A DNA stretch of 64,000 bases from Mobula hypostoma (taxonomy: Eukaryota). The notes under the pieces are model-generated. The model saw only the letters and a list, made by a program, of their open reading frames with translations, ran no database searches and had not been told where the DNA came from. The stretch is taken from positions 3,658,001 through 3,722,000 of the forward strand of contig NC_086108.1 in the NCBI RefSeq assembly GCF_963921235.1. The letters run 5' to 3'. Made by a program: the position numbers and the translations under genes. This document shows, piece after piece, positions 13,918 to 62,525 of the stretch; the stretch's first letter is position 1; each line of letters opens with the position of its first letter.

Positions 13918-14022
13918 GAGCAACACACAAGAATGCTGGAGGAACTCAGCAGGTCAGGAAACATCTCTGGAATTGAATAAACAGTCGAAGTTTCAGGCCA
14001 AGACCTTTCTTCAGACCTGAGG
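13918..14022 (-). mobile_element. Short PLE terminal unit with degenerate hammerhead motif
   Basis: ATGCTGGAGGAACTCAGCAGG tail; reverse complement reads CTGAAGA-AAGGTCTTGGCCT-GAAACTTC-GACTG. Confidence 0.75.
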
Positions 14023-14349
14023 AGCTACCTTTCAGTAGGAGAAGGGAGGACATTGCCCAGTACACCACAGACAGGGATTTTCCCTGCGTCAGGGGGAAGG
14101 CAGACAAATGGACAGAGTGCTTTGCCATTGTCACTATAGGCTAAACTGTATGCACCACAGGGACCCATTTCTTTCATAAACAACCCAAGGTGGTGACTGT
14201 CTCCAGAGGAAGACAATGAGAGTGAAAATTAATGCTGTTAACACCCAGTGACAATCATATTACTGTCCTTCTGAGCTGAGTCTGCAGACCTCACCGTGTA
14301 GAAGAAATTATACACTCAGTCCAAGTGTCTCAGCATTGTGCCATCCTGC

Positions 14350-15290
14350 CGGACCTGTCCCTCAGTCTACAGCTCAGCCAGTTACCTGTGCTGTTACTGA
14401 TCTACCTGTCCCTCAGTCTTCTGGTCTACCTGTCTGTCAGTCTACTGCTCAGCCAGTTACCTGTGCTGTCTTCCGGTCTACCTGTCCCTCAGTCTACTGC
14501 TCAGCCATTTATCTGTCCAGTCTACCAGATACTTTTTCCTCAATCTACAATTCAGCAAGTTACCTGTCCAGTCTACCGGTCTACCTGTATCTTAGTCTAC
14601 AGCTCAGCCAGTTATCTGTCAGGTCTACTGGTCTACCTGTCCCTCAATCTATGGCTCAGCCTGTTATGTATGGGGTCTACCGATCCCTCAGCCAGTTGTC
14701 TGTCCTGTCTAATGGTCTACCTGTCCGTCAGTCTACAGCTCAGCCAATTACCTGGCCGGTCTACTGGTCTAGCTGTCTCTCAGCCTACAGCTCACCCAGT
14801 TTCCTTTCCAGTCTAGTCTACCTGTCCCTCAGTCTACTGGTCTACCTATCCCTGAGTAGCTGGCTGAGCTATATTCTGAGGGACAGGTAGACCGGTAGAC
14901 TGAGGGACAGGTGGACCGGTAGTCCGGACAGGTAACTGGCTGAGCTCTAGTCTGAGGGACAGGTAGATCAGTAGACCAGACAGATAACTGGCTGAACTGA
15001 AGACTGAGAAACAAGTAGACAGGACAGACAGCTGGGTGAGCTGTAGACTGGGGACAGGTAGACCGGTAGACAGACAAACATTGGCTGAGCTGTACATTAA
15101 AAGACAGGTAGATCCGTACACCGGACAGGTAACTGGCTGAGCTGTAGATTGAGGAAAGAGTATCCAGTAGACCTGTCAGATAAATGGCTGAGCTGTAGAC
15201 TGAGGGACAGGTAAACCAGTGACCGGACAGGTAACTGACTGAGCTGTAGACTGAGGGATAGGTCGAATGGTAAACCGGACAGGGATAAAT
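14350..15290. repeat. Degenerate minisatellite arranged as a large inverted (fold-back) repeat
   Basis: Left arm units ACCTGTCCCTCAGTCTACAGCTCAGCCAGTT; right arm units AACTGGCTGAGCTGTAGACTGAGGGACAGGT; orientation switches near 14855. Confidence 0.85.
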
Positions 15291-15319
15291 AGCTAAATGG
15301 GTAGGGCTTCTGACAATGA

Positions 15320-15780
15320 GAGATAAGATAAATAGATAAACAGATAGATAAAATAGCTGGATAGATAGATAGATAAACATATAGACAGACAATAGGTAGA
15401 CAGATGGATAGATAGATAGTTGAATAGATTAACAGATAGATAGATAGATAGACTGATAGATAGACATTTAAACAGATATATGAGGTTCCCACCGGTTTTT
15501 ATGCCATGGTCACTATCATCAGCTGTGAACCCCAGGTTGGGAATCCCTGAGACAGATAAACAGATATATAGACAAACAGGTAGGTAGACTGATAGACAGA
15601 TAGAAAATTAAATCGATAGATAGACAGACAAATAGGTAGATAGACAGGCGGATATGTAGACAGATAAACCAATTGATAGATGGAGATAGATAGTTAAATA
15701 GGTAAACAGACAGACAGGTGGACAGACAAATATTAAGACAGAGGTAGACATGTGCAGACGGAGAGAGGTTGACAGAGTGG
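15320..15780. repeat. (GATA/GACA)n low-complexity region
   Basis: Direct observation. Confidence 0.85.
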
Positions 15781-15974
15781 TAATTAGGGCAGGTCCTGAA
15801 ACTGATGGACAGTCTCAGAAGGATGAACAAATGTACAGGTAACTGGATATTTGGAGAGGATGGAATACGACGGGGACAAATTTAAAACTACTGTTTCAAG
15901 ATGTGTTAAAGCACCACATTCGGTGAAGGTGCTTTGAAGATGCTGTCACGACACCACAGGCACTGAGATAACCT

Positions 15975-16825: not shown

Positions 16826-16902
16826 AGGAGTTCCCAACCTGGGGTCCATGAATCCCTTGGTTAGTGATTGGGGTGTTTGGTATAAAAGGGTTGGGAACCC
16901 TG
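16826..16902. mobile_element. ~80-bp hAT(Charlie)-like MITE
   Basis: Termini CAGGAGTTCCCAACC / GGTTGGGAACCCTG; related copies at ~15482-15549, 28343-28424, 42689-42752. Confidence 0.65.
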
Positions 16903-17139
16903 CTGTACCTCCTCCCAGATGATAGTATGATGGATTCCAACAAGTGAATGTGAGAAAGTGGACTTTTATTTAATTAACTGGGATAGTCGGAATTTTTTAC
17001 CGGTCTGAGTGGGATATAGGACAGAAGAGATCACTTGCCAAAGTCACACTTATTTACTTCCTTGTAAAGAGATCTGATGAAGGGTCTCAGCCTGAAATAT
17101 TGACTGTTCATTCTGCACCCCGCCCCCATAGATGTTGTC

Positions 17140-17712
17140 TGAGGCTCCTTAAGGTTGTTATAGCTGGGGCTGGTAGTGGGGACAAGCTCCTGCAACCTAC
17201 TAAATGCTCCCAATGGTGTGTGACTTAAATAGCCTCTGACAACCAAGTCCAGCTGCTGCCCTTCACGTGTGGCTTAACTACTAAGCCTGGTGGAATTGTT
17301 TCTACTGACAGGAGAAGGAGCAAAAGAAAGTTACTGGTACCTTACAACCAGTCACTTCAGGCGGATGGGTCTCATTAGCCATGGTTGGCAGCTCATCTAG
17401 GAGAAGGAAAACTCTGACCTCAAATCTCTGCTGCCCTGCGGCTGTATCCACTCATGGAGAAGACCAGGAGTAAACTCCTGATGGAAAAAATCCGGAGCTG
17501 AAGTCCCTAAGGCAGTCCTATATTGCTCAACGCTGCCTGGCAACTTCTGCCGCTGGTGCCAAACTTATCGGCCACTGCAGTTCCTTTGGGCTCATCAGAT
17601 ACATGGAGAGGGGGGCCTGTTACCTGGGCAACAGCTGGCTCTCCATATCGTACTTGCATATCTAGACTGCTAGGATTCAACATCCATAGTGGACCATGAC
17701 TAGCGGAGGCCT
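17140..17712 (+). mobile_element. Probable RTE-type LINE 5' region, inserted inside a short PLE terminal unit
   Basis: GGCAGCTCATCTAGGAGAAGGAAAACTCTG resembles RTE 5'UTRs (from memory); PLE unit is split (hammerhead ~17072-17106, tail CTGACCTGCTGAGTTCCTCCAG ~17727-17748). Confidence 0.45.
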
Positions 17713-17769
17713 CATTCAGCTGCCGCCTGACCTGCTGAGTTCCTCCAGTCCTCTATTGTAGTTTTGTTT

Positions 17770-17965: not shown

Positions 17966-18004
17966 CGGTACTAGAGTCTATCTACGTGAGATGCTGCGTG
18001 AGAT

Positions 18005-21900: not shown

Positions 21901-22020
21901 CCTCCAATAGCCTTAGCAAACCTCCCCGCCAGGATATTGGTTCCCCTGGGATTCAAGTGCAACCCGTCCTTTTTGTACAGGTCACACCTGCCCCAATAGA
22001 GGTCCCAATGATCCAGAAAT
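18915..22020 (-). mobile_element. CR1 LINE, near-complete ORF2 plus the end of an ORF1 SGNH-esterase-like domain; frameshifted
   Basis: YFNARNIVNKVDEL, ITETWM, YRPPNS, MGDFNFP (APE); [27 protein letters not shown] (RT); DLYKKDGLHLNPRGTNILA (ORF1 esterase end). Confidence 0.95.
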
Positions 22021-22689: not shown

Positions 22690-23800
22690 TACACGGGCCT
22701 CACCGGTCTCTTACTTGCTATTTACTGCCTGTTACACCGCTTGGTGTTTAGGACAGCAATGAAAGTCCTTGATCTTTGTCTGTCCGTGGCTATCTTTTCT
22801 ATTTTGTCCCAGGTGTGGTTCAGGGTCCTCATTTCTGTCTCTACCGTACAGCGGCAAATTGTCTGTGGTTTCCCACATTTCCTCCGCCCTCCAGGGGTTC
22901 AATGAAGTGCTGTCTTGATGATGGAGCTGGCCTCTCTTCTCATCACGTGCCCAACCCATCTCCAACATTTCCTCATGATGATGGAGCTGGCCTCTCTTCT
23001 CATCACGTGCCCAACCCATCTCCAACATTTCCTCATGATGATGGAGCTGGCCTCTCTTCTCATCACGTGCCCAACCCATCTCCAACATTTCCTCATGATG
23101 ATGGAGCTGGCCTCTCTTCTCATCACGTGCCGAACCCTTCTCCAACATTTCCTCATGATGATGGAGCTGGCCTCTCTTCTCATCACGTGCCGAACCCATC
23201 TCCAACATTTCCTCATGATGATGGAGCTGGCCTCTCTTCTCATCACGTGCCCAACCCTTCTCCAACATTTCCTCATGATGATGGAGCTGGCCTCTCTTCT
23301 CATCACGTGCCGAACCCTTCTCCAACATTTCCTCTTGATGATGGAGCTGGCCTCTCTTCTCATCACGTGCCGAACCCTTCTCCAACATTTCCTCTTGATG
23401 ATGGAGCTGGCCTCTCTTCTCATCACGTGCCGAACCCTTCTCCAACATTTCCTCTTGATGATGGAGCTGGCCTCTCTTCTCATCACGTGCCCAACCCATC
23501 TCCAACATTTCCTCATGATGATGGAGCTGGCCTCTCTTCTCATCACGTGCCGAACCCTTCTCCAACATTTCCTCATGATGATGGAGCTGGCCTCTCTTCT
23601 CATCACGTGCCGAACCCATCTCCAACGTTTCCTCATGATGATGGAGCTGGCCTCTCTTCTCATCATGTGCCCAACCCTTCTCCAACATTTCCTCATGATG
23701 ATGGAGCTGGCCTCTCTTCTCATCACGTGCCCAACCCTTCTCCAACATTTCCTCATGATGGTTGTGACCATGTCCTCTTGGAGACACTGAAGAAGTGGTT
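22690..23800 (-). mobile_element. RTE LINE 3' fragment hosting a 60-bp tandem expansion
   Basis: Minus strand WRWVGHVMRREASSIIKTALH*TPGGRRKCGKPQT matches the RTE ORF C-terminal motif (W.GHV.R...W.P.G.R..GRP). Confidence 0.85.
22921..23760. repeat. 60-bp minisatellite, 14 near-identical copies
   Basis: ATGGAGCTGGCCTCTCTTCTCATCACGTGCCCAACCCATCTCCAACATTTCCTCATGATG repeated line for line. Confidence 0.98.
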
Positions 23801-29830: not shown

Positions 29831-29909
29831 ACAGGCTCACGATGTGGCGCCAACCTGTTAACCCACTCACAGATCAATCTAACCTATCCCTTTTACACAA
29901 CCCTTAATT

Positions 29910-30498
29910 ACGCCCTGTCCGCCAGAGAAAGCGGGATCTCCCAGTGGCCACACATTTTAATCCCACGTCCCATTCCCATTCTGACATGTCTATCCACGGC
30001 CTCCTTTACTGTAAAGATGAAGCCACACTCAGGTTGGAGGAACAACACCTTATATTCCGTCTGGGTAGCCTCCAACCTGATGGCATGAACATCGACTTCT
30101 CTAACTTCCGCTAATGCCCCACCTCCCCCTCGTACCCCATCTGTTACTTATTTTTATACACACATTCTTTCTCTCACTCTCCTTTTTCTCCCTCTGTCCC
30201 TCTGAATGTACCCCTTGCCCATCCTCTGGGTCCCCCCTCCCCCCCGTTGTCTTTCTTCCCGGACCTCCTGTCCCATGATCCTCTCGTATTCCTTTTGCCA
30301 ATCACCTGTCCAGCTCTTAGCTCCATCCCCCCCCCTCCTGTCTTCTCCTATCATTTGGATCTCCCCCTCCCCCTCCCGCTTTCAAATCTCTTACTAGCTT
30401 TTCCTTCAGTTAGTCCTGACAAAGGGTCTCGGCCTGAAACGTCGACTGTACCTCTTCCTATAGATGCTGCGTTCACCAGCAACTTTTATGTGTGTTGC
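29910..30498 (+). mobile_element. Penelope-like element 3' end (GIY-YIG tail + 3'UTR + hammerhead unit)
   Basis: Frameshifted DLPVATHFN...HSHSDMSIHGLLYC.DEATLRLEEQHLIFRLGSLQPDGMNIDFSNF, same family as 59364-61050; hammerhead motif at 30411-30448. Confidence 0.9.
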
Positions 30499-31039
30499 CT
30501 CAATTTTTCTGCCATCCAAGAGTTTCTGAATTATCTCTGATGTATCTGCTCTACCGCCACTTCTGGCAGTGCGTTTCACGCACTCCCCACTCTGTGTAAA
30601 TAATGTTAAAAAGCAACTTCACCTCTGACATCCCCCGATACATTCCTCCAAGCACAATAAAATTATGCCAGTTCCACCCTAGTAAAATGTGTCTCTGACT
30701 GTCTGCTCGGCAACAATTAGAAGAAGCCACAACTTCTCCATTTCCGGAGAATTATGAAAACAATTTTTTCCCTGCAATTCTATGAAACATTTAAATCGAA
30801 GTAATATTCTGAATGCCGTGTGAAATAAGCCGCAGATTTTTACCTAAGAGAAGTCACCATGGCAGAGTTTAGTCACGGTGTGCTGTCTTTGAAGAGACAG
30901 GTGAGAGGTTGTTAGCGTGATGGAGGGGGCTTGGATAGAGAACACAGGGAGCTTTTCTCCTTCAGAGGAAGGTCGAGAGATGGCCACAGAGTAATCGGAA
31001 GAGACACTCAGAATGTGGAAATCTATTCTCCACCAGCGA

Positions 31040-31625
31040 ATGGTGTGGATGTTGTTCCAAAGTGGATGTGGAGAAGATGTTTCTTATGGTGGGGCAGTCT
31101 AGGACCAGAGGGCACAGATAGTGTGGATGTGGAAAAGGTGTTTCCTGTAGTGGGAGAGTCTAGGACCAACCAGAGGACACAGATAGAGTGGATGTGGAGA
31201 GGACGTTTCCTACCGTGGGGGAGTCTAGGACCAGAGGACACAGTCTCGGAAAACAAGAACGTCCTTTCGAAAGGACGTTTAGATGAGGAGGAATTTCTTT
31301 AGCCAGATGGTGGTGAATCAGTGAAATTCATTGCCACAGACGGCTGTGGAGGCCAAGACATTAGGTACATTTATGTCCTGACGAAGGGTCTCGGCCTGAA
31401 ACGTCGACTGCGCCTCTTCCTATAGATGCTGCTTGGCCTGCTGCGTTCACCAGCAACTTTGATGTAGGTACATTTAAAGCGGAGCTTGATAGGTTCTTGA
31501 TTAATCAGGGTGCTAAGGGTTACAGAGGGAAGGAGAATAGACTTGAGAGGGATAATAAATCAGCCATGTTGGAATGGCGAAGCAGACTCGATGGGCTGAA
31601 TGACCTAATTTTGCTCCTATGTCTC
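31040..31625 (+). mobile_element. CR1 3' fragment with a locally triplicated segment, interrupted by a 91-bp hammerhead insert
   Basis: GTGGATGTGGA...TCTAGGACCA occurs three times; FPVVGESRT motif. Confidence 0.8.
31374..31410 (+). ncRNA. Minimal type I hammerhead ribozyme motif (PLE-type)
   Basis: GTC-CTGACGA-AGGGTCTCGGCCT-GAAAC-GTC-GAC: intact CUGANGA and GAAA core, AGG/CCT stem II, GUC triplet, GTC/GAC stem I. Confidence 0.75.
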
Positions 31626-32434
31626 AAGGGGAGGCTGAACACAGATATGAGGGAGGCGAAAAGCGGTATCTACATTAATACCGGAAACGCAAGAACATCT
31701 GAAGATGCTGGAAACCCATCAGTCCTGATGAAGGGTCTCGGCCCAAAAAGTCGACTGTTTAATAGATGCTGCCTGGACTGCAGAGTTCCTCCTCCATTTT
31801 GTGTATGTTGCTATTTAGATTGGAGAGAGGCCAGCACGAACGAGCTGGGCCGAATAGCCCGTTTCCGCGCCGCATGTTCCAGGTAATGTCGAGGAGCGGA
31901 CTCTCGTAGCATGTAAGAAGTTTCTGGAATCAGCAAAGGTACAGAGTGCTAGGATTAGTGTGGATGGGTTATTTGATGCTCAGCATAGGCATGATGGGAT
32001 GAACGGCCTGTTTCGCTGGTCTATCACTTTGTAAAGTAAACCGGGTTAACCCCTTATGCCAGGCGGAATGAATGAGCCGAGGCTCGGAGGAGGTCAATAA
32101 TGTGCGCATGTTCGGTGTCGTTGCTGTTTTTCATGCCTGATTCATAGAAGCGGTAAGCGGGGGGAGTACGGGGAATAAATTGCCCCTGTCTGGGGTAGCT
32201 AAACACCGTTCTATGCTTGATAAGATTCCTGATTTCAGCCGCTCATTTGCAAAGCGCTGATTATCGAAAGGTCCTCGTACCTATTCCTGACCCTACGAGG
32301 TCTCTCCCCCTATAACCTTTAACCTTCCCCTCCTATCTACGCCTCCCAACTTTACTCCGAAAGTGTGTTACACTATTCATTCCAGTACTGGGCTAATTTC
32401 CCCACCCTCGTTGCTGCCAAGCCGTTAGAGGGAG

Positions 32435-32590: not shown

Positions 32591-32735
32591 CGATCGAACT
32601 ATTCCACCCCCCTCCCACAAGTACATTTCCCACCGTGCTTACAAGCAGTGCGGTAGTCACAAGAGGACTAGATCGGACAGGCTGGGGTTCTTGTCTTTGG
32701 AGCAGGGAGGGTTAGACTGAAGAAATGCGGAATCC

Positions 32736-32962
32736 AAACACGAGGAAGTCTGCAGATGCTGGAAATCCGGAGCAACACAGACAAACTGCTGGACGAACTC
32801 AGCAGGCCAGGCAGCATCTAGGAAAAGAGTAAACCGCCGACATTTCGGGCGAGACCCTTCAGCAGGGACTCAGGAAGGGTCTCCTCCCCAAACGTCGACA
32901 GTCACTCTTTTTCCATGGGTGCTGCCTGACCTGCTGAGTTCCTCCAGCATTTTGTGTGTGTG
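32736..32962. mobile_element. Inverted pair of PLE terminal units
   Basis: Minus-strand unit 32736-32868 abuts plus-strand unit 32870-32962, each with a degenerate hammerhead. Confidence 0.75.
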
Positions 32963-33439
32963 GTGCCCGAGAAATCAGGAACTGGGCATGAGATGCTTTT
33001 TTCACTCATTGTATGGAGGTAAATGCGGAACTCAATACCGGCCTGTAACGTTCCACATGTTAACAGAGTCAAGAGCCCTGGTCCCAATGCTGGACTGGGG
33101 ATGCCAACGCGACGGGCCGAATGGCTTCTTTCCCAGCCATAATTATTCTCTGATGGTAAACTAACGCAGGGCTAAAACTGTGCACAGAATCGGTGACTTG
33201 GAGCGTGTTTCCTCGTGCAAGGAGTCTAGATTACGGGAAGCCGGTTTCGCACGATGAACTGGCCTTTGCAGATTTTCTCTCGTTTGTGGTTCGCTTGGCC
33301 GAGACGAAGTTGCCAGTGAGAAAGCGGCGGGGAGCTGCCTCCTTGAACGGGGTACACCCACAGCGCTGTTGGGGAATGGGGCTTCCACAATTGTGACCCA
33401 GATATATCTTTCAAAGTCAAAACAAATCTTTTATTTTGC

Positions 33440-35230: not shown

Positions 35231-35944
35231 AAAAAGGTCGTTAGATAATACTGAGAATGAGTGGCAGAGTCCTTGAAAACGAGTCTATAGGTTGTGGAAA
35301 CAGTTCAGAGTTGAGGTGAGTGAAGTTGTCTCGCTGGTTCAGGAGAGGTAGATTAAGGGACCAAAATCAACCCAAAGTCACCGCAGCGAGTTTGCCGCAA
35401 TTCTTGAAAACACTGTCTGGGAATGTTTTTCCCCCTTATGGTCCACTATCTCTCCTATCCTTTTCCGGTCCCTAACCTTTTCCTCCTATCTGTATTCACC
35501 TATCACCTTCCAGCTAGCCTTCTCTCCCCAAAACCCCAACCTTTTTATTCTGGAATTTTCCCCATCCTTTCGTAGGTTCTCGGTCTGAAATATCATTTCT
35601 ATAAACACTGCCTGATCTGTTGAGTTCCTCCAGCATTTTGTGAGTGTTGCCAGTTCAACGTCCATCCCGCGAGAGACCTCGGATTAACTTCCCACCGAAA
35701 AGGCAACCGTCTCCGACAAAATGCTGGAACCCCTCAGCACCGCAACGGCGGCCGGGTCCACAGTTTCACAGTCAAACTAAATTTTGTATCTAAGAAGATA
35801 CATTTTCTCGCAGGCATTCACAGGAAAATAAAGAAATACCATGGATTTTACGCTTATGTCATGTCATCTCTGATAGTTAAACACATGTAGGTCTAAAAGC
35901 ATGAAAGGCTCCCAGAAAGAAACTGAGTTTAATAAATCGCGTCA

Positions 35945-39086: not shown

Positions 39087-41627
39087 CACAAACACAAGAG
39101 ATTCTGCAGATGCTGGAAATCCAGAGTAACACAGACAAAATGCTGGAGGAACTCAGCAGGTCAGACAGTGTCGATGGTCAGAGTAACACACACAAAATGC
39201 TGGAGGAACTCAGCAGGTCAGACAGTGTCGATGGTCAGAGTAACACACACGAAATGCTGGAGGAACTCAGCAGGTCAGACAGTGTCGATGGTCAGAGTAA
39301 CACACACAAAATGCTGGAGGAACTCAGCAGGTCAGACAGTGTCGATGGTCAGAGTAACACACACGAAATGCTGGAGGAACTCAGCGGGTCAGAGAGTGTC
39401 GATGGTCAGAGTAACACACAGACAAAATGCTGGAGGAACTCAGCAAGTCAGACAGTGTCGATGGTCAGAGTAACACACACAAAATGCTGGAGGAACTCAG
39501 CAAGTCAGACAGTGTCTGAGGTCAGAGTAACACACACAAAATGCTGGAGGAACTCAGCAGGTCAGACAGCGTCGATGGTCAGAGTAACACACACAAAATG
39601 CTGGAGGAACTCAGCAGGTCAGACAGTGTCGATGGCCAGAGTAACACACAGACAAAATGCTGGAGGAACTCAGCAGGTCAGACAGTGTCGATGGTCAGAG
39701 TAACACACACAAAATGCTGGAGGAACTCAGCAGGTCAGACAGTGTCGATGGTCAGAGTAACACACACAAAATGCTGGAGGAACTCAGTGGGACAGACAGT
39801 GTCGATGGTCAGAGTAACACACAGACAAAATGCTGGAGGAACTCAGCAGGTCAGACAGTGTCGATGGCCAGAGTAACACACAGACAAAATGCTGGAGGAA
39901 CTCAGCAGGTCAGACAGTGTCGATGGTCAGAGTAACACACACAAAATGCTGGAGGAACTCAGCAGGTCAGACAGTGTCGATGGTCAGAGTAACACAGACA
40001 AAATGCTGGAGGAACTCAGCAGGTCAGATAGTGTCGATGGTCAGAGTAACACAGACAAAATGCTGGAGGAACTCAGTGGGTCAGATTGTGTCGATGGTCA
40101 GAGTAACACAGACAAAATGCTGGAGGAACTCAGCAGGTCAGAGAGTGTCGATGGTCAGAGTAACACACACGAAATGCTGGAGGAACTCAGCAGGTCAGAC
40201 AGTGTCGATGGTCAGAGTAACACACACGAAATGCTGGAGGAACTCAGCCAGTCAGACAGTGTCGATGGTCAGAGTAACACACAGACAAAATGCTGGAGGA
40301 ACTCAGCAGGTCAGACAGTGTCGATGGTCAGAGTAACACACACAAAATGCTGGAGGAACTCAGCCAGTCAGACAGTGTCGATGGTCAGAGTAACACACAC
40401 AAAATGCTGGAGGAACTCAGCAGGTCAGACAGTGTTGATGGTCAGAGTAACACACACAAAATGCTGGAGGAACTCAGCAGGTCAGACAGTGTCGATGGTC
40501 AGAGTAACACACACAAAATGCTGGAGGAACTCAGTGGGACAGACAGTGTCGATGGTCAGAGTAACACACAGACAAAATGCTGGAGGAACTCAGCAGGTCA
40601 GACAGTGTCGATGGTCAGAGTAACACAGACAAAATGCTGGAGGAACTCAGCAGGTCAGAGAGTGTCGATGGTCAGAGTAACACACACGAAATGCTGGAGG
40701 AACTCAGCCAGTCAGACAGTGTCGATGGTCAGAGTAACACACACAAAATGCTGGAGGAACTCAGCCAGTCAGACAGTGTCTGAGGTCAGAGTAACACACA
40801 CAAAATGCTGGAGGAACTCAGCAGGTCAGACAGCGTCGATGGTCAGAGTAACACACACAAAATGCTGAAGGAACTCAGCGGGTCAGACAGTGTCGATGGT
40901 CAGAGTAACACACACAAAATGCTGGAGGAACTCAGCAGGTCAGACAGTGTCGATGGTCAGAGTAACACACACAAAATGCTGGAGGAACTCGGCAGGTCAG
41001 ACAGTGTCGACGGTCAGAGTAACACACACAAAATGCTGGAGGAACTCAGCAGGTCAGACAGTGTCTGAGGTCAGAGTAACACACACAAAATGCTGGAGGA
41101 ACTCAGCAGGTCAGACAGTGTCTGAGGTCAGAGTAACACACACAAAATGCTGGAGGAACTCAGCCGGTCAGACAGTGTCTGAGGTCAGAGTAACACACAC
41201 AAAATGCTGGAGGAACTCAGCAGGTCAGACAGTGTCGACGGTCAGAGTAACACACACAAAATGCTGGAGGAACTCAGCAGGTCAGACAGTGTCTGAGGTC
41301 AGAGTAACACACACAAAATGCTGGAGGAACTCAGCCGGTCAGACAGATCAATGGTCAGAGTAACACACTCAAAATGCTGGAGGAACTCAGCAGGTCAGAC
41401 TGTCGATGGTCGGAGTAACACACACAAAATGCTGGAGGAACTCAGCAGGTCAGACAGTGTCGATGGTCAGAGTAACACACACAAAATGCTGGAGGAACTC
41501 AGCAGGTCAGACAGTGTCGATGGTCGGAGTAACACACACAAAATGCTGGAGGAACTCAGCAGGTCAGACAGTGTCGATAGAAAAGAGTAAACAGTCGACG
41601 TTTCGGGCCGAACCCCTTCACTGGGAC
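39087..41627 (-). mobile_element. PLE terminal unit containing the 57/59-bp minisatellite
   Basis: Starts AAACACAAGAGATTCTGCAGATGCTGGAAATCC and ends AAAGAGTAAACAGTCGACGTTTCGGGCCGAACCCCTTCACTGGGAC, the same ends as the unexpanded unit at 32736-32868. Confidence 0.85.
39122..41578. repeat. 57/59-bp minisatellite, about 43 copies
   Basis: Unit CAGAGTAACACACACAAAATGCTGGAGGAACTCAGCAGGTCAGACAGTGTCGATGGT; copy number estimated from length divided by unit. Confidence 0.97.
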
Positions 41628-42465: not shown

Positions 42466-44175
42466 TCATAAATATTTATTCTCGGGTATTTTTGAGTATT
42501 GAAGGTTTAGATAGCGAAGGTTCAAGACACCAAACACATATACAGTTACACCAAAAATACATTATAGACCCCCCCCCCCGCCCCCGCCAAGTCCCTGAGT
42601 GCGTTCCCCAAATTGAGGGTGCAGTTACCGGCAGTCCAAAGACAAAGCAAACACACACGCACGCAATCCAGCTTGTGAAAGTTTAGAGCAGGGGTTCCCA
42701 AACGTTCTTGTGCCATGGACCCCTATCATGAACCGAGGGGTTAGGAACCCCCGGTTTACCCTTCATTTATACACACCCCTCCCCTGCAGGTCCCACCACA
42801 ATGCCAATGTCGTTATACCTGTACATTTTAAATTGCCGGAGAAGATGTTAGAAAAAGTCACTGAATCTACACACCCTCGCTGGGAATTTCCACACGCGTC
42901 ACGGCCTTTATCGATGTACACACCGGGTTACCGGAGCTTTCGAACAGCCGTTGCGCCGCGATATTGCACACTGATCCCGCTCACACACACGCGCCAGTAA
43001 CTTTATTAACGTGCATTTTGTGTTACTGAAGGTTTAGTTGGGCACCTACGCATCCCCACCCTCCGCAAAAGCCACACAATGCCAATAGCATTATTAATTT
43101 TAGATTGTTAGCAGTTCAGAAGATATTTGCTAAATGCGCTGACTTTACATACATTGCGAGAAAATCCCACTCTTTATCAACGTGTATTCTGGGTTATTAG
43201 GAGAAGTTTCACCGCGACGTTACACACCAGCGCTACACACGTCGTTTTTCCCTTATTCGAATGCTCCTATGTCTTAAGGTCTTTTTCTATCACCGAAGGT
43301 CCAGTTTGCAATTTGCACAAAATGTTTGATTGCAAATCCCACACAGTGTCAATATCTTTATTAGCGTGTAAATTGGATTTCTGAAGCTTTAGAATGTAAC
43401 ATTTAACCTACGGTCTCCGCGGTTTCCCTGTCTCCATTAGCGACTGTATGAAATACATTATTGTAACTGTTTGTTGTAAGATGGTAACTTAGTGATAGAC
43501 TCTCGCGGGGGGTGGGGGGGAGGTATTAAAACCAGCAAAACTCTTGAAACGGCTTTTTTAACGCTGCGAGATCAGGACCGGGGCATTTCACCGGCGCGGG
43601 CAAACAAAGGGGAGACGAGAAGGCGCGTGAAAGTGCGGCATTGAATTATTCTTGGAAGAAAGTAAATGTTCCCACGTCCCCAATGGCTAAAACAAATCCC
43701 GTCAATCTTTTTTCCCCCAAGGGACAGATATTTATGAAACAAACCATATAAAGCAGAGATTTCAATCAGGGGTCCACGGTCCCCTCGATTAATTCTCAGG
43801 ATCCTGATGCACGATACAGTGTCCTGAGAGGGTCTCGGTCCGAAACGTCGACTATTTCTTCCTTTCCACAGGCACTGCCTGATCTGCTGAGTTCCTCCAG
43901 CATTTTGAGTGTGTTGGTCTGGATTTCCAGCATCTGCAGAATTTCTTGTGTACGTACAGAGAAACGTTCTCTTCTGTATAATTGTGCGTTACTGTTAATA
44001 ACTACAGAACTCGTTTACAATAAAACGCTTTGTTACAGAGTGCTTTTCCTCAAAACTAAGATTATTTTAAAGTACAGTCGATTGCAATCTTGCTGAAGGG
44101 TCTCGGCCCGAACATCGACTGTACTTTTTTTTCCATAGATGCTGCCTGGCCTGCTGAATTCCTCCAGCATTGTGT

Positions 44176-44212
<37 letters not shown>

Positions 44213-44324
44213 CGTTCTTGCTTTCCAGAATCTCTTGTGTTAACAATATCAATTGAAGTACGTCGTAGCTTTAAAAGAAAATGCTATTGTTTATTTATTT
44301 GTTTGTGTGTCGTTAGCAAAGATT

Positions 44325-45335: not shown

Positions 45336-46393
45336 TTATAAATCTGTATATATATAAAATACCTTTTTCTTTGCAACACTGATTTGTTCTACCATTGGCT
45401 CTGCCGTCCAAACCGTAAGCTCTACGGTCAAGGCGGGCGAAACTCTTAATACGGCCTTTAATTAAGTAACCAAGTTGTTTAATTCTAAACTCATTTTTTG
45501 TGTTTGGTTCAAACTCCAAACTCTAATGACAAACAGGAGATAATCTGTAGATGCTGACGATCCAAAACAACACACACTGGGGACTCTAATTGCTCTTTAA
45601 TGAAACGCTTTAATAAAGTGTTTAATAGCTCTTTAATCAAACGCTTTAATAAAACGTAAAACTCGAATGCTGCCTTTCTGAATGCGGCTGGGTGAGGGAT
45701 CTCACCGGCGCGGGTGTTTCTTGCTGTAATTTGTGGATGTTTTAAATGTATCGCACCGTACTGGTGCCGCAAAGCAACTCATTTTACAATGTCCCTGACT
45801 ATAAACCTGATTCTGATTCATGTTTAGTACATGAAGTTTTTAATCAATTGAAAAGTTTCTAAAAATAATTAATGAACTATAATATACTGACATTATCGTC
45901 AAGGCTTTGTGTATTCCATAGGACTCCCAAAGGAATCGAAATCTGTTGTAATTAAGTACGTGTTTGGCACAGCATTGTGGGCCAAAGGGTCTGTATTGTG
46001 CTGTAGGTTTTCTATGTTTCTAAATAAATTGACCCGCTGAGCGTTTCTAGCAGTTTTTATTTCAGGATACTTGTATCTGGAGTTCCTATATTTCGTTCCT
46101 TGAGAACTATGTTACTTGAAAGTTTAGAGAAAGTTGTATTTATTTTTTATTAAGGAGTAAGCAAGCTTCACTCATCCCAACTCTGAACTGATCCACAACC
46201 TACGGACTCACTTTCAAGGACTCGAGAACTCGTGTTCTCGGTATTTATTACTTAACTACTTTGTCCCTCTCTTTGTACATTTGCACAGTTTGCACAATGG
46301 TTGTTTGCCTGTCAGATTCAAGATCAGGGTTAATGTCACCGGCATATGTCACGACATTTGTTACCTTGGCGGCAGCAGTACAGTAAATTACTG

Positions 46394-46437
<44 letters not shown>

Positions 46438-46450
46438 GCGTATATTAAAT

Positions 46451-46528
46451 CAACACACATCAAAGTTGCTGGTGAACGCAGCAGGCCAGGCAGCATCTCT
46501 AGGAAGAGGTACAGTCGACGTACAGACA
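46451..46528 (-). mobile_element. 78-bp PLE terminal insert with 12-bp TSD
   Basis: CGTATATTAAAT at 46439-46450 and 46529-46540; inside a Rex1 3'UTR. Confidence 0.8.
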
Positions 46529-49500: not shown

Positions 49501-51349
49501 GGCATCGCTCCTTGAAGATGTCAAGGGTGGTGGAGTAGGTGTGCTGGGTGAATGGCCTGTGTTCCTTTCCATTCTCCCCACATTTGTAAATTGAAAATTA
49601 ATTGGTAAATGTGTTAGTTGTTGTCACGGATACGGAGGTACAGTGGACAAGTACGTTTTGCATGGCGTTCCTACAGATGATTTCATCACATCAGTGCATT
49701 GAGGCAGAACAAGGGGGACAATAGCAGAGTGCAGAGTAAAGTGTCGCAGTCACAGGGAAAGGGCAGAACAGGCAGACAGTAATGTACAAGGGGCAAGAGA
49801 AGGCAGGTAGATTATGAGGGCAAGAGTCCAATTTGTCATAGTAGAGGACCATCAAGGAGTCTGATAATACTGGGGCAAAAGCTGTCCTGGGGCCTGGTGA
49901 TACTGATTTCAGGCATTTGTATCTTCTACTCAATGGGAGAGGAGAAAGAGAGAATGTCCAGGGTGGGTGAGGTCTTTGATTATGTTGGCTGCTTTACTGA
50001 GGCAGGGAGAAGTCCTGCTTCCTTGTAGGCGGTGGGTGTGATGGAGAGTGACGAGGGGGTTGACCAGGGAAATAAGATGGGGTGGTGGTGTGGATCTGGA
50101 TGAGGCATTGAACTGGACAGAAGGATGGTGTGGACGAGAGGAAGATGTGGATGAGACGATGGTGTGGATGGTCCTGCTTTGTTAGGACAATGAAATGGAC
50201 GGACAATGGTGTGGAAAGTGGGATGGTGCGACAGTGTGGACAGAGGGATGGAGCGGAGAGGCAGATGAAGCTGAGAAATGTGAAATGTTAGTTTCTTGGG
50301 AAGAGTTAGAGGTGATAGAAACTAGGGGCTGTAATTCTGAAAGGGCAAAATGACTCAGTTTGTTGAAATTGATCGAAAAGGCTAGAAAATGGTTCTGAAA
50401 ATCAGAAGGGTTTTCCAGCTTTGGAACTGAGAGCAAGAGGAGGGGTGTGGTGGTGGGAGACTGAGGTGGAAAGACAAGGGAATGTAGAAGCTGCAGATCT
50501 GGAGCAATGCACGGCCGATCAGGCAACGTCTGCCGAGGGAAATGGACGGTTGATGTTACCAGCCAAAACCCTTCATCTGGTCTGAAAGAGAGAGGGGGAG
50601 TAAAGAAGGTACTCTACTGGAAATGTCGACTATCCATTTCCATCCACAGATGCTGCCCGACCCACAGGCTTCCTCCAGAATCTAATGGCGAACACTGCTG
50701 GGTTACGCATTAGATCACTTTTGGGCTCCATGGCTTAGAAAAGATACAAAGAGTTTTGAGAGGGTGTGGAAGAGATTTACCACAATGATGGGCTGGGGTG
50801 GTGAAAGTACACTTGAGAGAGAGAGAGGGGTGAATGTATGCATGCCAGACAGAGAGAGAAAAGTTTGAGGGCACAGAAGTACTTATACCAGACAGAGACA
50901 GAAAGAGGGAGAAAGAGAGAGAGGAGGGGTGAAAGTACACGTGTGAGAGAGAGAGAGAGAGAGAGGCACAAGGCAAAACAAAGTACTGCAGGAGCTCAAC
51001 CCCACTGTCCATGTCACCCCACAGACACTGTTCCACCCACTGGTTGCAGAATCTGTAATCACTTGTCCTCTGGGAATGAAAGACATTAGTTCAGACTTGT
51101 ATCAGGCAGGGAGCCAAGAGCGACACACAAAAAATGCAGGAGGAACTTAACATATTAGCAGAATTAGGCCATTCAGCCCATCGAGTCTGCTCCGCCATTC
51201 CATTATGACTGATTTATTATCCCTTTTAACCCCATTCTCCCACCTTCTCCCTGTAACCTTTGACATCCTGACTAATCTAGAACCTGTCACCTCTGCTGAA
51301 TGGGGAGGTTCGGCTGGTGGCAGATGGAGTGGGGTTACAGAGAGCATGT

Positions 51350-52562
51350 CACACGCACAGACATACAGTCACATTCACACACACTCACTCACACACACAC
51401 GCTCACACACACATACACTCACACACATACTCACTCACTCTCACACACACACACACTCACACACACTCTCACACAGACACACACACACACTCACTCCCTC
51501 ACTCTCACACACACTCACACACACTCTCGCACACACACTCTCTCACACACACACGCTCACACACACTCACTCACACACACACACTCACACACACTCATTC
51601 ACTCTCACACACACACACTCACACATACTCACACACACTCTCACACAGACACTTTCACACACATTCACTCACACTCTCACACAGACACTCTCACACACAC
51701 ACTCACACACACACACAAACTCTCACACACTCACACACACACTCTCACACACACTCCCACACACACTCACACACACTCACTCACACTCTTACACAGACAC
51801 TCTCACACACACAGTCACTCACTCTCACACACACACACACACTCACACACACTCTCACACAGACACTCACACACACACACTCACTCACTCCCTCACTCTC
51901 ACACACACTCTCACACACACACTCTTACACACTCACACACACACACTCACACACACTCACTCACTCACACACTCACACACACACACATTCTCACACACAC
52001 TCACTCACACTCTCACACACACACACACTCACACACACTCTCACACACACTCTCTCTCTCACACACACACACACTCACACACACTCACTCACACACACAC
52101 TCTCTCACTCACACACACACACTCACACACACTCACTCACTCTCACACACACACACTCACACACACTCACACACACACTCACACACACTCTCACACACAC
52201 ACACTCACACACACTCACTCACACTCTCACACAGACACTCTCACACACACAGTCACTCACACACACACACACACTCACACACACTCTCACACAGACACTC
52301 ACACACACACTCACTCACTCCCTCACTCTCACACACACACTCTCACACACACACACTCACACACACACTCTCACACACTCACACACACTCACTCACACAC
52401 ACTCACTCACTCTCACACACACCCACACACACACACACACACACTCACACACACTCACTCACTCACACACTCACACACACACACTCTCACACACACTCAC
52501 ACACACACTCCCACACACACTCATTTACTCACTCTCACACACACACACACACACACAAACAC
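51350..52562. repeat. Compound (CA)n/(CACT)n/(CT)n low-complexity array
   Basis: Direct observation; ends in a PLE-unit tail ACATAAGATGCTGGAGGAACTCAGC. Confidence 0.97.
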
Positions 52563-52604
52563 ATAAGATGCTGGAGGAACTCAGCAAATCAGGCAGAAAA
52601 GGTT

Positions 52605-58990: not shown

Positions 58991-59363
58991 CAGGGGACTG
59001 TGACTGTCTCTACCACCACCCCTGGCAGGGTATTCCACACACCCACCACTCTCAGTGAGAGAAAAAATCTTGCATATGACATCACCCCCCCCCCCATACT
59101 TTTCCTCCAAACACCTGAAAATTATGTGCCCTGGTATTAGCTATTTCTGCCCTGGGGGAGAAAGTTTCTGGCTATCCTCTTGATCAATGCTTCTTATCTT
59201 ATACACCTCTATCAAATCACTTCTTATCCACCCTCACTCCAAGGAGAAGTCAAACCATTCATTGTCAATGAACTATATACATGTATACTGCCAAATGAAA
59301 CTTTTCTCCGGACCTATCCTCATTAGACATGCTTTCTAATCCAGGCTACATTCTGGTAAATCT

Positions 59364-61050
59364 TAAACACAAAATAATCTGCAGATGCTGTAAAAGATCA
59401 AAGCAACACTTTCAGTACGCTGGATGAATTCAGCAGGTCGGGCAGCATCAGTCAGAAACGATGAGTCGACGTTTCCGGCCGGAGCCCTTCGTCAGGACTG
59501 AAGAATGAAAGATGGGGAAGGATTTGAAGAATGCTTGTAGCTTCAGTTGAAAGACCAGTAATTTGAAAGACAAAAGGGTGGGGGAGAGGAAGCATTGAGG
59601 TCATAGCCCTGAAAACAATGGGTAGTAGAAGGAGGCGGAACCATGAGGGAGGTGGTAGGCAGCTGGGGGAGGGGGCAGAGTGAAATAGGGATAGAGGAAG
59701 GGAGGGGGAGGGAATTGCCAGAAGTTGGAGAATTCTATGTTCATTCCAAGGGGCTGGAGACTACCTAGACAGTATGTGAGGTGTTGCTCCTCCAACCTGA
59801 GTTTAGCCTCATCATGGCAGTAGAGGAGGCCATGTATGGACATATCTGAATGGGAATGGGAAGCAGAGTTGAAGTGGGTGGCTACCGGGAGATCCTGTCT
59901 GTTGTGGCGGACGGAGCAGAGGTGCTCGACGAAGCCGTTCCCCAATCTGCGTCGGGTTTCACCGATGTAGAGGAGGCCGCACCGGGAGTACCGGATGCAA
60001 TAGATGACCCCAACAGACTCACAAGTGAAGTGTTGCCTCACCTGGAAGGACTGTTTGGGGCCCTGAATGGTGGCAAGAGAGGAGGTGTAGCACTTGCGCT
60101 TACAGGGATAAGTGCCAGGTGGGAGTTCAGTGGGGATGGACTTGCGGATAAGGGAGTGGCGGAGGGACCGATCCCTGCGGAAAGCAGAGAGGGGTGGAGA
60201 GGGAAAGATGTGCTTAGTGGTGGGGTCCTGTTGAAGGTGGTGGAAGTTGCGGAGGATAATGTGCTGGATCCGGAGGCTGGTGGGGTGGTAGGTAAGGACA
60301 AGGGGAACTCTGTCCCTGTTGTGGTGGCGGGAGGATGGGGTGAGGGCCGAAGTGCGGGAAATGGAGGAGATGCGGGTGAGGGCATCATTGATGACGGTAG
60401 AAGGGAAACCACGATCCTTAAAGAAAGACGACATTTGAGATGTCCTGGAAAGGAAAACCTCACCTTGGGAGCAGATGCGGCGGAAACAGAGGAACTGGGA
60501 ATAGGGAATGGCATTTTTGCATGTGGCGGAGTGGGAAGAGGTATAGTTGAGGTAGTTATGAGAGTCAGTGGGCTTGTAGAAGATGTCAGTGGGCAGTCTG
60601 TCTCCAGAGATGGAGACTGAGACATCGAGAAAGGGGAGAGAAGTGTCCGAGATAGACCAAGTGAATTTGAGGGCTGGGTGGAAGTTAGAAGTAAAGTTGA
60701 TGAAATTGACAAACTCAGCATGGGTGCAGGAAGCAGCACAAATGTAGTTGTCAATGTACCGAAGGAAAAGTTGGGGAGCAGTACCAGAATAGGTTTGGAG
60801 CACAGACTGTTCCACATAAGCAACGAAGAGGCAGGCGTAGCTGGGTCCCATGCGAGTTCCCATAGCTAAACCCTTAGTCTGAAGAAAGTAGGAAGAGCCA
60901 AAAGAGAAGTTATTAAGTGTGAGAACCAGTTCCGCCAACCGGAGGAGGGTAGTGGTGGTGGGGAACTGGTGAGGTCTATTATTCGGAAGTAACAGAGGGC
61001 TTTGAGGCCTTCTTGATGGGGAATGGAGGTGTATAAGGATTGGACATCTC
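59364..61050 (-). mobile_element. Penelope-like retroelement (RT + GIY-YIG, Neptune-like), 5'-truncated, 13-bp TSD
   Basis: DVQSLYTSIP, GLAMGTRMGPSYACLF, FLRYIDN (second catalytic Asp lost), VIYCIRYSRCGLLYIGET; TSD TTCTGGTAAATCT at 59351-59363 and 61051-61063. Confidence 0.95.
59464..59500 (-). ncRNA. Minimal type I hammerhead ribozyme motif in the PLE 3' terminal repeat
   Basis: Reverse complement CAGTC-CTGACGA-AG-GGC-TCCG-GCC-G-GAAAC-GTC-GACT: intact core, AGTC/GACT stem I. Confidence 0.75.
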
Positions 61051-62104
61051 TTCTGGTAAATCTCCTCTGCACCCTTTCCAGAGTTTCCACATCCTTCCTG
61101 TAATGAGGTGACCAGAACTGAGCAGAATATTCCAAGTGTAGTCTTAGTACAGTCCATACTCCCAGTGTACTGGCGTATGCCTGAAATTGGTTTGCGAGTG
61201 CCAAGGTAGAATGGAGAACTTTGTTTGCATGCAATCCAAACAGACCATTCCACTGAGACAGTACGAGGGAATGTACGTTGCGTGCCTGTGATCTTGCTGC
61301 AAGCACATTTTTCAGTGTACCTACACCTCTCCATGCCTGAGTGCGCGTAGCAGTAAATGCAATCTGAGACTCTAAATATTTGACCCTTTGAACCCAGAGA
61401 ATCAAAATCAGGTTTATTGTCACTGACAACTGTCATGAAATTCATTGTTTTGTGACAGCAGTATGGTGAAATACATAAAACAATTAATTACAACAAGATA
61501 GAGATGTGTGAGAGAGTTATGGAAAAGTATGGCACAGAAACAGGCCCTTCAGCCCATCTAAACTGCCTACTGCCATTGACCCATCAGAAGTGTGGATTGG
61601 GACATGGATGGGAGGCTGTGGTCCCAGAGCAGGTCGGCGGGAGGAGGCAGTTTAAATGGCTCAGCACAGACTACATGGGCCTATGTTTTTCTATGACTCT
61701 GACTCCACTATTTTTGCACTGCTTTTTTTAAAATATGTATTTCTCACTGCAATTTGTAGTTTTAAAAATGTATGACAATATACTGCTGCCGCAAAATTAC
61801 AGGTCTCACGACATATACCAGTGATATTAAACCTGATTCTGATTCTAGGCGCTGCGCATGGATAATGAAGCGAAATTTGCACAAAACAGATGTTTAAAAT
61901 CTTAAACTCAAAAAATAACGTTGGAAGTACTTTGCGGGTCAGACAGTGTCAGATTAGAAACTAAAAACCATTGTATACATTTCTGTTACTTTTGTTTACA
62001 TAATATCAATGGGGAAATGTATCTATCTATATTCTTTGTATTTAAAATACTTGCCAATAAGATGGAAAATGTTTTTTAAAATGTAGTATGTTATTTTCGA
62101 ACAT

Positions 62105-62525
62105 GAGACAATCTGTAGATGCAGGAAATCCAAAACACCACACACAAAAAAGAGTAAACAGTCAACGTTTAAGGCCGAGACCCTTCATCAGGACTGGAAA
62201 ACAAGGAGGAAGACACCAGAATAAAAAGGTGGGGAGAGGGGGACAGCTGGAAGGTGATGGCTGAAGCCAGGTGGGTGGGAAAGGTAAAGGTCTGGAGAAG
62301 AAGGAATCTAATAGGAGAGGAGAGTGGACCGTAGGAGAAAGGGAAGGAGGAGGGGATCCAGGGGAAGTGATAGGCAGGAGAGAAGTAAAAGATCAGAGTG
62401 GGGAATAGGGGAAGTGGGAAGGAGGAAGGGAAAGAGACCAGGTGACAGGTGATGGGTGAAACCAGGTAGGTACTCTTTTCCATAGATACTGCCTGACCTG
62501 CTGAGTTCCTCCAGCATTTTGTGAA
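62105..62525 (-). mobile_element. PLE 3'UTR + terminal unit with an inverted terminal piece
   Basis: Hammerhead-like motif at 62159-62197 (minus); plus-strand tail at 62470-62523. Confidence 0.8.

What the first reader, a model, noticed from the sequence alone, without database searches (positions are those of the whole stretch)
13918..62525. Dense family of short Penelope-derived units carrying a minimal hammerhead ribozyme
The motif CAGTC-CTGA(T/C)GA-AGGGTCTCGGCC(C/T)-GAAAC-GTC-GACTG folds as a type I hammerhead: stem I CAGTC/GACTG, core CUGANGA and GAAA, short stem II, and a GUC triplet reached through the palindrome ACGT, which could allow dimeric stem III pairing. Copies lie near 13985(-), 17072(+), 30411(+), 31374(+), 31720(+), 32835(-), 32870(+), 38882(+), 41592(-), 43821(+), 44090(+), 50550(-), 59464(-) and 62159(-). 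Cores are intact at 31374 and 59464. Two copies sit directly downstream of PLE GIY-YIG ORFs, which ties the motif to PLE terminal repeats. Minimal hammerheads in PLEs are established. The inference is that most copies here are ORF-less 80-200 bp units at about one per 5 kb, i.e. a retrozyme- or SINE-like non-autonomous system.
Basis: partly seen in the sequence, partly recalled or inferred. Interest (0 to 1): 0.75.

Follow-up and report, generated by a model that had tools for sequence, protein, structure and literature searches.

The report
Penelope stubs starting at ribozyme edge
These short repeats are mostly decayed end pieces of a known Penelope-type jumping gene in what is likely a ray genome, and half of them start within a few bases of the front edge of its small hammerhead motif, likely because the copying enzyme ran off the start of the element's own RNA rather than because they form a separate SINE or retrozyme family.

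Summary
All 14 listed copies are real, and I found 8 more pieces: 22 pieces, 19 insertions in 64 kb. The motif has the layout of the known minimal type I hammerhead of Penelope-like elements (PLEs). It lies 200-300 nt after the GIY-YIG ORF of a Neptune-type PLE whose closest named relatives come from rays. 17 of 19 insertions lack ORF sequence. They are not a retrozyme: there are no tandem units, no end at the cut site, and 0 of 10 scored copies keeps a complete fold. They are not one SINE lineage: two short copies group with an ORF-bearing copy (100/100), and there are no Pol III boxes. They show published PLE insertion marks: two 3' ends, inverted 5' arms and 10-18-nt target duplications. 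The one unusual point is that 11 of 22 5' ends fall in 12 nt at the 5' edge of helix I (0 of 200,000 random draws). Likely mechanism (untested): reverse transcription starts in the tail of the RNA's first terminal repeat and runs off the RNA's 5' end. The scan reported this pattern before in this genome and in seven windows of other genomes. Cleavage and transcription were not tested.

The parts
59365..61050 (-). Longest PLE remnant: RT 3' half, thumb and GIY-YIG (to about 59715), pyrimidine-rich 3' UTR, hammerhead motif 59463-59500 (G-G at the base of helix II), far tail
29908..30499 (+). 5'-truncated PLE: GIY-YIG C-terminus 29908-30111, 300-nt UTR, motif 30411-30448 (G8 changed to A), ends at the near 3' site; subfamily 2
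62098..62525 (-). Inverted composite: arm with 280-nt UTR, motif 62159-62196 and far tail (-), joined to an inverted tail arm 62472-62525 (+); exact 10-nt target duplication round the whole unit
35437..35651 (+). Copy with about 130 nt of UTR (69% like the 62k UTR) and a decayed core
31374..31464 (+). Cleanest short unit: 91 nt, starts T-GTC at -4, core letters intact, exact 12-nt target duplication (31362-31373 / 31465-31476) inside a host repeat whose two halves are continuous
31687..31812 (+). Short unit 31720-31812 preceded by an inverted copy of the about 33-nt far tail (31687-31718)
32735..32965 (.). Head-to-head pair joined at the helix I edge: (-) arm with far tail, (+) arm without; borderline 12-nt duplication
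50469..50686 (.). Older head-to-head pair: (-) arm with about 25 nt of UTR and far tail, (+) arm starting at +5
38881..38968 (+). Short unit, starts T-GTC, core broken
39088..41627 (-). One unit starting T-GTC whose tail expanded into a 57-nt x 43 minisatellite (39122-41578) without the ribozyme motif; ends with far tail
43820..43950 (+). Short unit with far tail, starts T-GTC, 2-nt core deletion, borderline target duplication
44069..44235 (+). Short unit from -5 preceded by a 14-nt inverted piece of itself; tail broken by a TG run
13917..14019 (-). Short unit; 5' end at about -5 (uncertain)
17073..17150 (+). Short unit; 5' end at about -1 (uncertain), tail cut short
46448..46521 (-). Subfamily 2 piece starting at +23 (5 nt before the predicted cut), 18-nt duplication with 2 mismatches
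17721..17748 (+). Tail-only fragment
45527..45577 (-). Tail-only fragment (E 0.028)
51105..51149 (-). Tail-only fragment
52559..52596 (-). Tail-only fragment

Best explanation
The units are separately inserted end pieces of a Neptune-type Penelope-like retrotransposon whose 5' ends cluster at the front edge of its hammerhead motif, likely because the element's own enzyme starts copying in the tail of the RNA's first terminal repeat and runs off the RNA's 5' end. Shown from sequence: the motif ends the PLE 3' UTR; copies stop at one of two 3' sites about 35 nt apart; some carry target duplications or inverted arms; short and long copies come from the same subfamilies. Inferred: a partial-tandem master is transcribed from an initiator-like site in the 5' arm of helix I (A at -4). 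The RT-GIY-YIG protein nicks AT-rich DNA and primes internally at a tail site, as shown for Anolis Poseidon. Priming in the downstream repeat gives ordinary long, randomly truncated copies. Priming in the first repeat gives 90-135-nt run-off stubs, sometimes with one untemplated base (the T of T-GTC). Two primings on opposite strands give the head-to-head pairs. Ribozyme cleavage is likely not what sets either end, and the stubs likely decay neutrally.
For: PLE identity: RT, thumb, a CxxxxCxxC linker and VIY..YIG; best hits 67-81% identical in Hypanus, Mobula and Rhincodon. The CX2-5CxxC linker is called Neptune-type in PMC8557442. 5' cluster: 11 of 22 hand-called ends in -6..+5 of C3 against 0.5-0.8 expected; scan test 0 of 200,000; P(9 or more) 2e-7 after dropping the two uncertain ends. 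Upstream of the 6 plain short copies there is no match to long-copy UTRs (scores 18-22, null 95% 27) and pyrimidine fraction is 0.36-0.68 against 0.72-0.96 in long copies. Two 3' sites: in genome contigs, loose ends behind 30498 (335 contigs, mixed flanks) and a continuing tail behind 30506 (157), matching the 30-40-nt tail and two RT start sites of PMC11167929. In 3 of 3 two-armed pairs one arm has the far tail and the other not; a fourth composite has the tail alone inverted. Duplications: 3 of 14 insertions tested at P 0.005 or below, 2 more at 0.04-0.06. Short copies 31378 and 46521 are 94-95% like ORF-bearing 30416, branch 100/100. BBCABW initiator match with A+1 at -4 in 3 of 4 long copies and at -8 in the fourth; background 8 in 834 nt (consensus from the abstract of PMC5287114). 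Four short copies start T-GTC where long copies have A; in 31378 the target duplication shows that the T is not target DNA.
Against: No RNA 5' end was observed; contigs cannot show one. The initiator match is not independent evidence: the same letters are fixed by helix I pairing and also read as a splice acceptor. In D. virilis Penelope the start lies 46 nt before a 75-nt intron whose end maps to helix I, so about 120 nt upstream and not at the helix. No partial-tandem master is in the window. In genome contigs the commonest loose end before helix I continues into a pyrimidine tract (921, 587, 154 and 62 contigs in 4 of 4 runs, agreement only 0.38-0.41), and a T-GTC start is not among the six best-supported loose ends of any run, so the window may overstate the stub share. 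The ends were called by hand from one window. A preference for adding dA is recalled; the one paper checked did not confirm it.
Confidence: 0.5

Rival explanations
1. Same PLE stubs, but the hot spot comes from structure: once the hammerhead is copied, the two helix I arms in the new cDNA pair or fold back, which favours early second-strand priming, strand switching or integration at that point of a long RNA.
For: Three inverted junctions (32865/32869, 50605, 44089) sit at the same edge. The motif folds as a closed hairpin. Ends scatter from -5 to +5 rather than hitting one base.
Against: A polymerase stalling at a hairpin would be expected to stop on entering it (+33), and 0 of 22 ends lie at +28..+36 (the expectation is general knowledge). 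It does not explain T-GTC in 4 copies.
Confidence: 0.2
2. A true SINE-like system: some short copies, or solo terminal repeats, are themselves transcribed from the helix I edge and are mobilised in trans by the Neptune protein, separately in each subfamily.
For: Fixed 5' and 3' ends, own target duplication (31378), four T-GTC starts across two subfamilies. Non-autonomous PLEs are known in Chlamydomonas, and solo 'monomers' are reported in vertebrates.
Against: Short copies are not a clade (6 changes against 5.7 shuffled; 403 of 500 shuffles as low), but 13 of 14 inner branches are unresolved. No Pol III box at a shared position among 17 pieces and no tRNA. By summed contig depth the motif exceeds the endonuclease end only about 2.5-fold; this is a crude figure and not a copy number.
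Confidence: 0.15
3. The RNA copied is spliced: the pyrimidine tract plus CAG inside helix I is a 3' splice site, as in D. virilis Penelope, and the stubs are copies of exon 2 with a few bases of exon 1.
For: 4 of 4 long copies have a pyrimidine tract and CAG just before the core. The D. virilis intron ends at helix I. An exon ending in TG would give TG-TCC. One Hypanus gene model leaves the PLE frame at the ORF's stop codon, as a donor there would cause.
Against: In 31378 only 2 nt would come from exon 1, and the four copies share nothing further upstream. None of the 15 joints shown (193 not shown) has GT..AG ends, and the four that land at the motif keep the AG. The one gene model that holds the unit reads through the site.
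Confidence: 0.08
4. A retrozyme: tandem units self-cleave as dimers, circularise, and are copied from circles.
For: Palindromic ACGU suits a dimer. Rare head-to-tail joints exist in genome contigs. Tandem hammerhead repeats were reported in the one chondrichthyan genome sampled by Li et al..
Against: 0 head-to-tail unit arrays with the motif among 44 tandem rows. The two close same-strand pairs (347 and 265 nt apart) are separate insertions, each with a broken partner. Go-back joints have depth 15-92 against millions (short contigs undercount them). No circular permutation and no end at the cut site.
Confidence: 0.04

Closest known systems
Minimal type I hammerheads (min-HHR) of metazoan PLE terminal repeats (Cervera and De la Pena 2014, PMC4209133; parts 1-2 of 4 read)
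   Same: No loop 3, palindromic 15.2/16.2, an extra base after A9, location in the pLTR; thousands of single motifs ascribed to truncated PLEs; opposite-strand pairs 100-700 bp apart.
   Different: Main text does not mention sharks or chondrichthyans. Helix II here is 4 bp and often closed by G-U. No clustering of 5' ends is described in the parts read.
EN+ Penelope-like elements, Neptune type, insertion anatomy (Craig et al. 2021, PMC8557442; 12 of 29 passages)
   Same: C-terminal GIY-YIG with a Cys linker, heavy 5' truncation, inverted 5'-adjacent copy, 30-40-nt tail at one end, hammerhead near the 3' end.
   Different: The passages describe variable truncation, not a hot spot at helix I. 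No partial tandem or full-length copy is in this window.
Anolis Poseidon PAc mechanism (Frangieh et al. 2024, PMC11167929; parts 1-2 of 4)
   Same: Two RT start sites bounding the tail; both target strands cut and extended; AT-rich targets; hammerhead protein-assisted and dispensable in vitro; no reads ending at the cut site.
   Different: Another clade. Its ORF starts inside the hammerhead. 5' run-off stubs in the genome are not discussed in the parts read.
Non-LTR retrozymes and their monomers (Cervera and De la Pena 2020, PMC7229834, 12 of 26 passages; Li et al. 2026, bioRxiv 10.64898/2026.07.22.740005, parts 1-3 of 5)
   Same: Type I hammerhead, derived from a pLTR, solo monomers spread evenly on chromosomes.
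   Different: Retrozymes are defined by two or more tandem motif-bearing units and by linear and circular RNAs. None is seen here, and the units are bounded by PLE insertion ends.
Schistosome SINE-like hammerhead elements (review PMC6765202, 6 passages)
   Same: Short dispersed repeat carrying a type I hammerhead.
   Different: Those have a promoter in front of the ribozyme; here the unit starts at the ribozyme and no tRNA-like head or Pol III box was found.

Membership tests
min-HHR of PLEs | Core CUGANGA / GAAA / UH with helices I and II | tested here: met
   Layout; 80% of cells paired against 17-44% in slid controls; 4 of 10 copies keep all core letters
min-HHR of PLEs | Loopless palindromic helix III, extra base after A9 | tested here: met
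   Palindrome in 6 of 10 copies, extra A in 10 of 10
min-HHR of PLEs | G10.1-C11.1 pair | tested here: inconclusive
   G-C 3, G-U 4, A-U 1, G-G 2 of 10; position 11.1 is a CpG site
min-HHR of PLEs | Covariation across copies | tested here: inconclusive
   0 of 9 pairs change on both sides in 10 closely related copies
min-HHR of PLEs | Self-cleavage as dimer or with protein | not testable with these tools
   Energy folding does not return the double hammerhead as best dimer; no assay
Neptune-type EN+ PLE | One ORF, RT then GIY-YIG, with a CX2-5CxxC linker | tested here: met
   The window copy has lost 4 linker residues that ray relatives keep. Pfam hits are below cut-off (E 0.1 and 0.14)
Neptune-type EN+ PLE | Clade placement by RT tree | not tested
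   Assigned by the linker only
Neptune-type EN+ PLE | 5' truncation, inverted arm, optional 30-40-nt tail | tested here: met
Neptune-type EN+ PLE | Partial tandem forming pLTRs round a full ORF | tested here: inconclusive
   None in the window; no genome held
Non-LTR retrozyme | Two or more tandem motif-bearing units | tested here: not met
   rare go-back joints only
Non-LTR retrozyme | Unit-size linear and circular RNA | not testable with these tools
   Only contigs were available
SINE | Pol III internal promoter or tRNA-derived head | tested here: not met
   No shared A or B box in 17 pieces, box patterns recalled; no tRNA
SINE | Own lineage apart from the partner element | tested here: not met
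   Short plus long branch 100/100; label not clustered; tree mostly unresolved
SINE | Defined ends and target duplication | tested here: met

The most novel reading that the evidence does not exclude
The hammerhead's 5' arm doubles as the Pol II initiator of the ray Neptune element. A 90-135-nt solo end then holds the start site, the ribozyme and both RT start sites, and some stubs are self-renewing, Pol II-driven mini-elements (a Penelope SINE). The T of T-GTC would record RT run-off at the capped 5' end.
Probability: 0.15. Interest if true: 0.65.

Novelty: new member of a known kind. Interest (0 to 1): 0.3.

Why it matters
PLE transposition is poorly understood and has been rebuilt in vitro for one element. 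If the 5' cluster marks the RNA start, the many stubs in ray and shark genomes give a ready record of where a vertebrate Neptune transcript begins, where RT starts, and how inverted arms form. They would also suggest that hammerhead cleavage does not define what is inserted. For annotation, these repeats should be filed as PLE ends and not as a SINE or retrozyme. The ribozyme-PLE link and dispersed solo motifs are already in print.

Tried and rejected
No whole genome is held, so there is no genome-wide end map. Pattern scans found nothing in viral contigs, metagenome contigs or prokaryote genomes; a protein scan of viral contigs confirmed 0 of 33 candidates. Rfam gathering: 0. Pfam at E 0.01: 0 of 6 translations. 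No RNA holder was listed. Runs X15, X17 and X19 are only guessed to be RNA and are contigs; table 6 (shared starts or ends) was empty; this is no evidence either way. In X15 the depth relative to DNA run X1 drops from 0.08-0.11 over the endonuclease end to 0.01-0.03 over most of the UTR. I first read this as an intron and set that aside: loose ends there show other subfamilies' UTRs, and contig depth cannot rank parts. Four joints landing at 30412 in the RNA-guess runs are better read as replaced UTRs (one such record has 334 letters beyond the aligned part). A search for gene models spliced into the unit gave 1 hit among 7 candidates, reading through the site. 46521 first looked like a T-GTC start and was reassigned when its duplication proved longer. 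The 57-nt array is not a retrozyme: it lacks the motif. Lunse et al. 2016 (dimer cleavage) is not held and is known only through a review. Searches for a chondrichthyan description or a fixed 5' end gave none; Repbase, Dfam, subscription papers and the bioRxiv supplements of Li et al. were not seen and may list this family. PMC6155905 (9 passages) added nothing beyond the papers above.


Full report
Observation. A 38-nt pattern with up to 3 mismatches hits 4 times against none in 100 shuffles. A fuzzy core search and a profile built from 13 window copies recover 14 of 14 listed positions and add 8 pieces. I dropped six weak hits (E 0.035 to 9.4) and kept one at E 0.028. The reversed-window control gave two hits at E 0.75 and 6.5. 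Counting three head-to-head pairs once, there are 19 insertions in 64 kb. Rfam has no match at its gathering scores.

The ribozyme motif. The layout is helix I CAGUC/GACUG, CUGANGA, one extra A, a 4-bp helix II with a 4-nt loop, GAA, the palindrome ACGU standing for a loopless helix III, and C17. This matches the minimal hammerhead that Cervera and De la Pena defined in PLE terminal repeats and expected to work as a dimer. The copies are decayed. Of 10 that align without gaps, 4 keep all core letters and none keeps core, five-pair helix I, closed helix II and palindrome together. Copy 31378 is the best (helix I 3 of 5 pairs, G-U closing helix II). No pair changes on both sides (0 of 9 pairs, 10 copies), although 80% of cells pair against 17-44% when partners are slid. 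In genome contigs of the closest run, the CpG at the cut site shows 7-8% C-to-T and G-to-A changes, against under 1% at the neighbouring non-CpG positions listed, as neutral decay would give.

The parent element. [quoted passage not shown] Best hits are 67-81% identical and named from Hypanus, Mobula and Rhincodon, so the host is likely a myliobatiform ray. Relatives show the DKG motif and a CxxxxCxxC linker, which Craig et al. tie to Neptune. I built no RT tree, and Pfam scores are below cut-off. A second coding remnant lies at 29908-30111. In both, a 200-300-nt pyrimidine-rich UTR leads to the motif and then a tail. A zebra shark gene model reads through the same UTR into a similar motif. 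So 2 of 19 insertions hold coding sequence, 3 more hold UTR, and 14 hold neither.

3' ends and insertion marks. Copies stop either at a near site or about 35 nt further on. Contigs from the closest DNA run show both: 335 mixed loose ends behind 30498 and 157 continuing into the tail behind 30506. This is the PLE tail, which Frangieh et al. traced to two internal RT start sites. In 3 of 3 two-armed pairs one arm has the far tail and the other does not, and at 31687 the tail alone is inverted in front of the unit. Of 14 insertions tested, 3 have clear target duplications (31378, 12 nt exact; the 62098-62525 composite, 10 nt exact round both arms; 46521, 18 nt with 2 mismatches) and 2 are borderline. 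The flanks of 31378 are two continuous halves of a host repeat, so this 91-nt unit was inserted on its own. Inverted arms, tail and truncation are all described for EN+ PLEs.

5' ends. Relative to C3, my hand-called ends are about -1555, -508, -280, -128, -25, then eleven between -5 and +5, then +23, +37, +52, +55, +68, +88. The density on either side predicts 0.5-0.8 ends in 12 nt; a scan test gave 0 of 200,000; with 9 ends P is 2e-7 (the script used -1440 for the longest copy, which does not enter the test). Two of the eleven share one junction and two (14014, 17074) are uncertain. The sequence upstream of the 6 plain short copies does not match any long UTR. No end lies at the predicted cut (+28). 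Four copies start T-GTC where long copies have A, and in 31378 the duplication shows that the T is not target DNA. Against over-reading: across 4 of 4 runs the commonest loose end before helix I continues into a pyrimidine tract (921, 587, 154, 62 contigs; agreement 0.38-0.41, so a mixture), and T-GTC starts are not among each run's six best-supported loose ends. Contigs of young stubs overlap the reference too little to be laid (inference), so this neither confirms nor removes the peak. Summed contig depth at the motif is about 2.5 times that at the endonuclease end, against 16 cores to 2 coding remnants in the window; the tool warns that this depth is no copy number.

Retrozyme or SINE? No tandem array carries the motif. 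The 57-nt x 43 array is an expansion of one copy's tail. Head-to-tail joints in contigs have depth 15-92 against 4-11 million. Retrozymes are defined by tandem units and circular RNA, so membership fails. For a SINE, short copies 31378 and 46521 are 94-95% like ORF-bearing 30416 and share its 100/100 branch. The label 'short' needs 6 changes against 5.7 shuffled, though 13 of 14 inner branches are open. No Pol III box recurs in 17 pieces and there is no tRNA. Short units thus arise in at least two subfamilies, in one case demonstrably beside a long relative.

Mechanism. I commit to run-off (0.5). A partial-tandem master would be transcribed from the 5' arm of helix I. That arm matches the initiator BBCABW with A at -4 in 3 of 4 long copies and at -8 in the fourth (consensus from the abstract). 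The protein would prime inside the RNA at a tail site. Priming in the first repeat, 90-135 nt from the RNA start, would give stubs; priming in the last repeat would give long truncated copies; two primings on opposite strands would give inverted pairs. The insertion marks, ends and kinship are shown. Transcription start, priming in the first repeat and the untemplated T are inferred. The initiator match is weak evidence because helix I fixes the same letters, and in D. virilis the start lies about 120 nt before helix I. Rivals: a structure-driven switch at the hairpin (0.2), self-renewing mini-elements (0.15), spliced template (0.08), retrozyme (0.04). That the units are PLE ends and not a separate family I put at about 0.8.

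Novelty. Minimal hammerheads in PLEs, dispersed solo motifs, opposite-strand pairs and pLTR-derived monomers are published. I found no description of this ray family or of a 5' hot spot at helix I. Repbase, Dfam, Lunse et al. 2016 and the preprint's supplements were not seen. Other agents of this scan reached much the same reading in this genome and in seven windows of other genomes. Their notes are unchecked and are not independent support. Before that call I had noted the T-GTC starts and the insertion classes but had not yet run the formal test of the cluster, and their wording on the RNA start and on long-plus-short arms shaped how I framed it. Verdict: new member of a known kind, interest 0.3.

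Noticed in passing
window 39122-41578: 57-nt x 43 minisatellite (94% matches) born inside the tail of one PLE end copy; the motif and far tail still bracket it
   Followed up: partly
window 53402-55915: GC-rich 38-nt x 66 minisatellite, 93% matches
   Followed up: no
window 22916-23760: 60-nt x 14 tandem repeat, 97% matches, open in several frames
   Followed up: no
window 14395-15282: 52-nt tandem repeat present as two inverted blocks
   Followed up: no
P0001 (Hypanus gene model) and window 59715: The model leaves the PLE frame right at the ORF's last codon and goes on in unrelated residues, as a splice donor over the stop codon would cause; 1 of 16 shark and ray proteins looked at
   Followed up: partly
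P0121 (Mobula STARD3NL isoform X3): A host gene model carries the hammerhead-tail unit as coding sequence
   Followed up: partly
window 31410-31426 and equivalents: A second pyrimidine tract plus YAG about 20 nt after the predicted cut site recurs in most copies and looks like a splice acceptor; absent in 59495
   Followed up: no
run X19, place 31409: In another species half of the depth has A in place of U at helix I position 1.4, a possible source of covariation across species
   Followed up: no
window 17097-17100: The helix III palindrome reads ATAT in place of ACGT; still a palindrome, but decay of one CpG on both strands explains it
   Followed up: partly
window 4862-7136, 11585-13549, 19054-21912, 8454-9959: Decayed LINE-type reverse transcriptase remnants of more than one kind (CR1/L2-like by recalled resemblance) make up much of the window and host several stubs
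   Followed up: no
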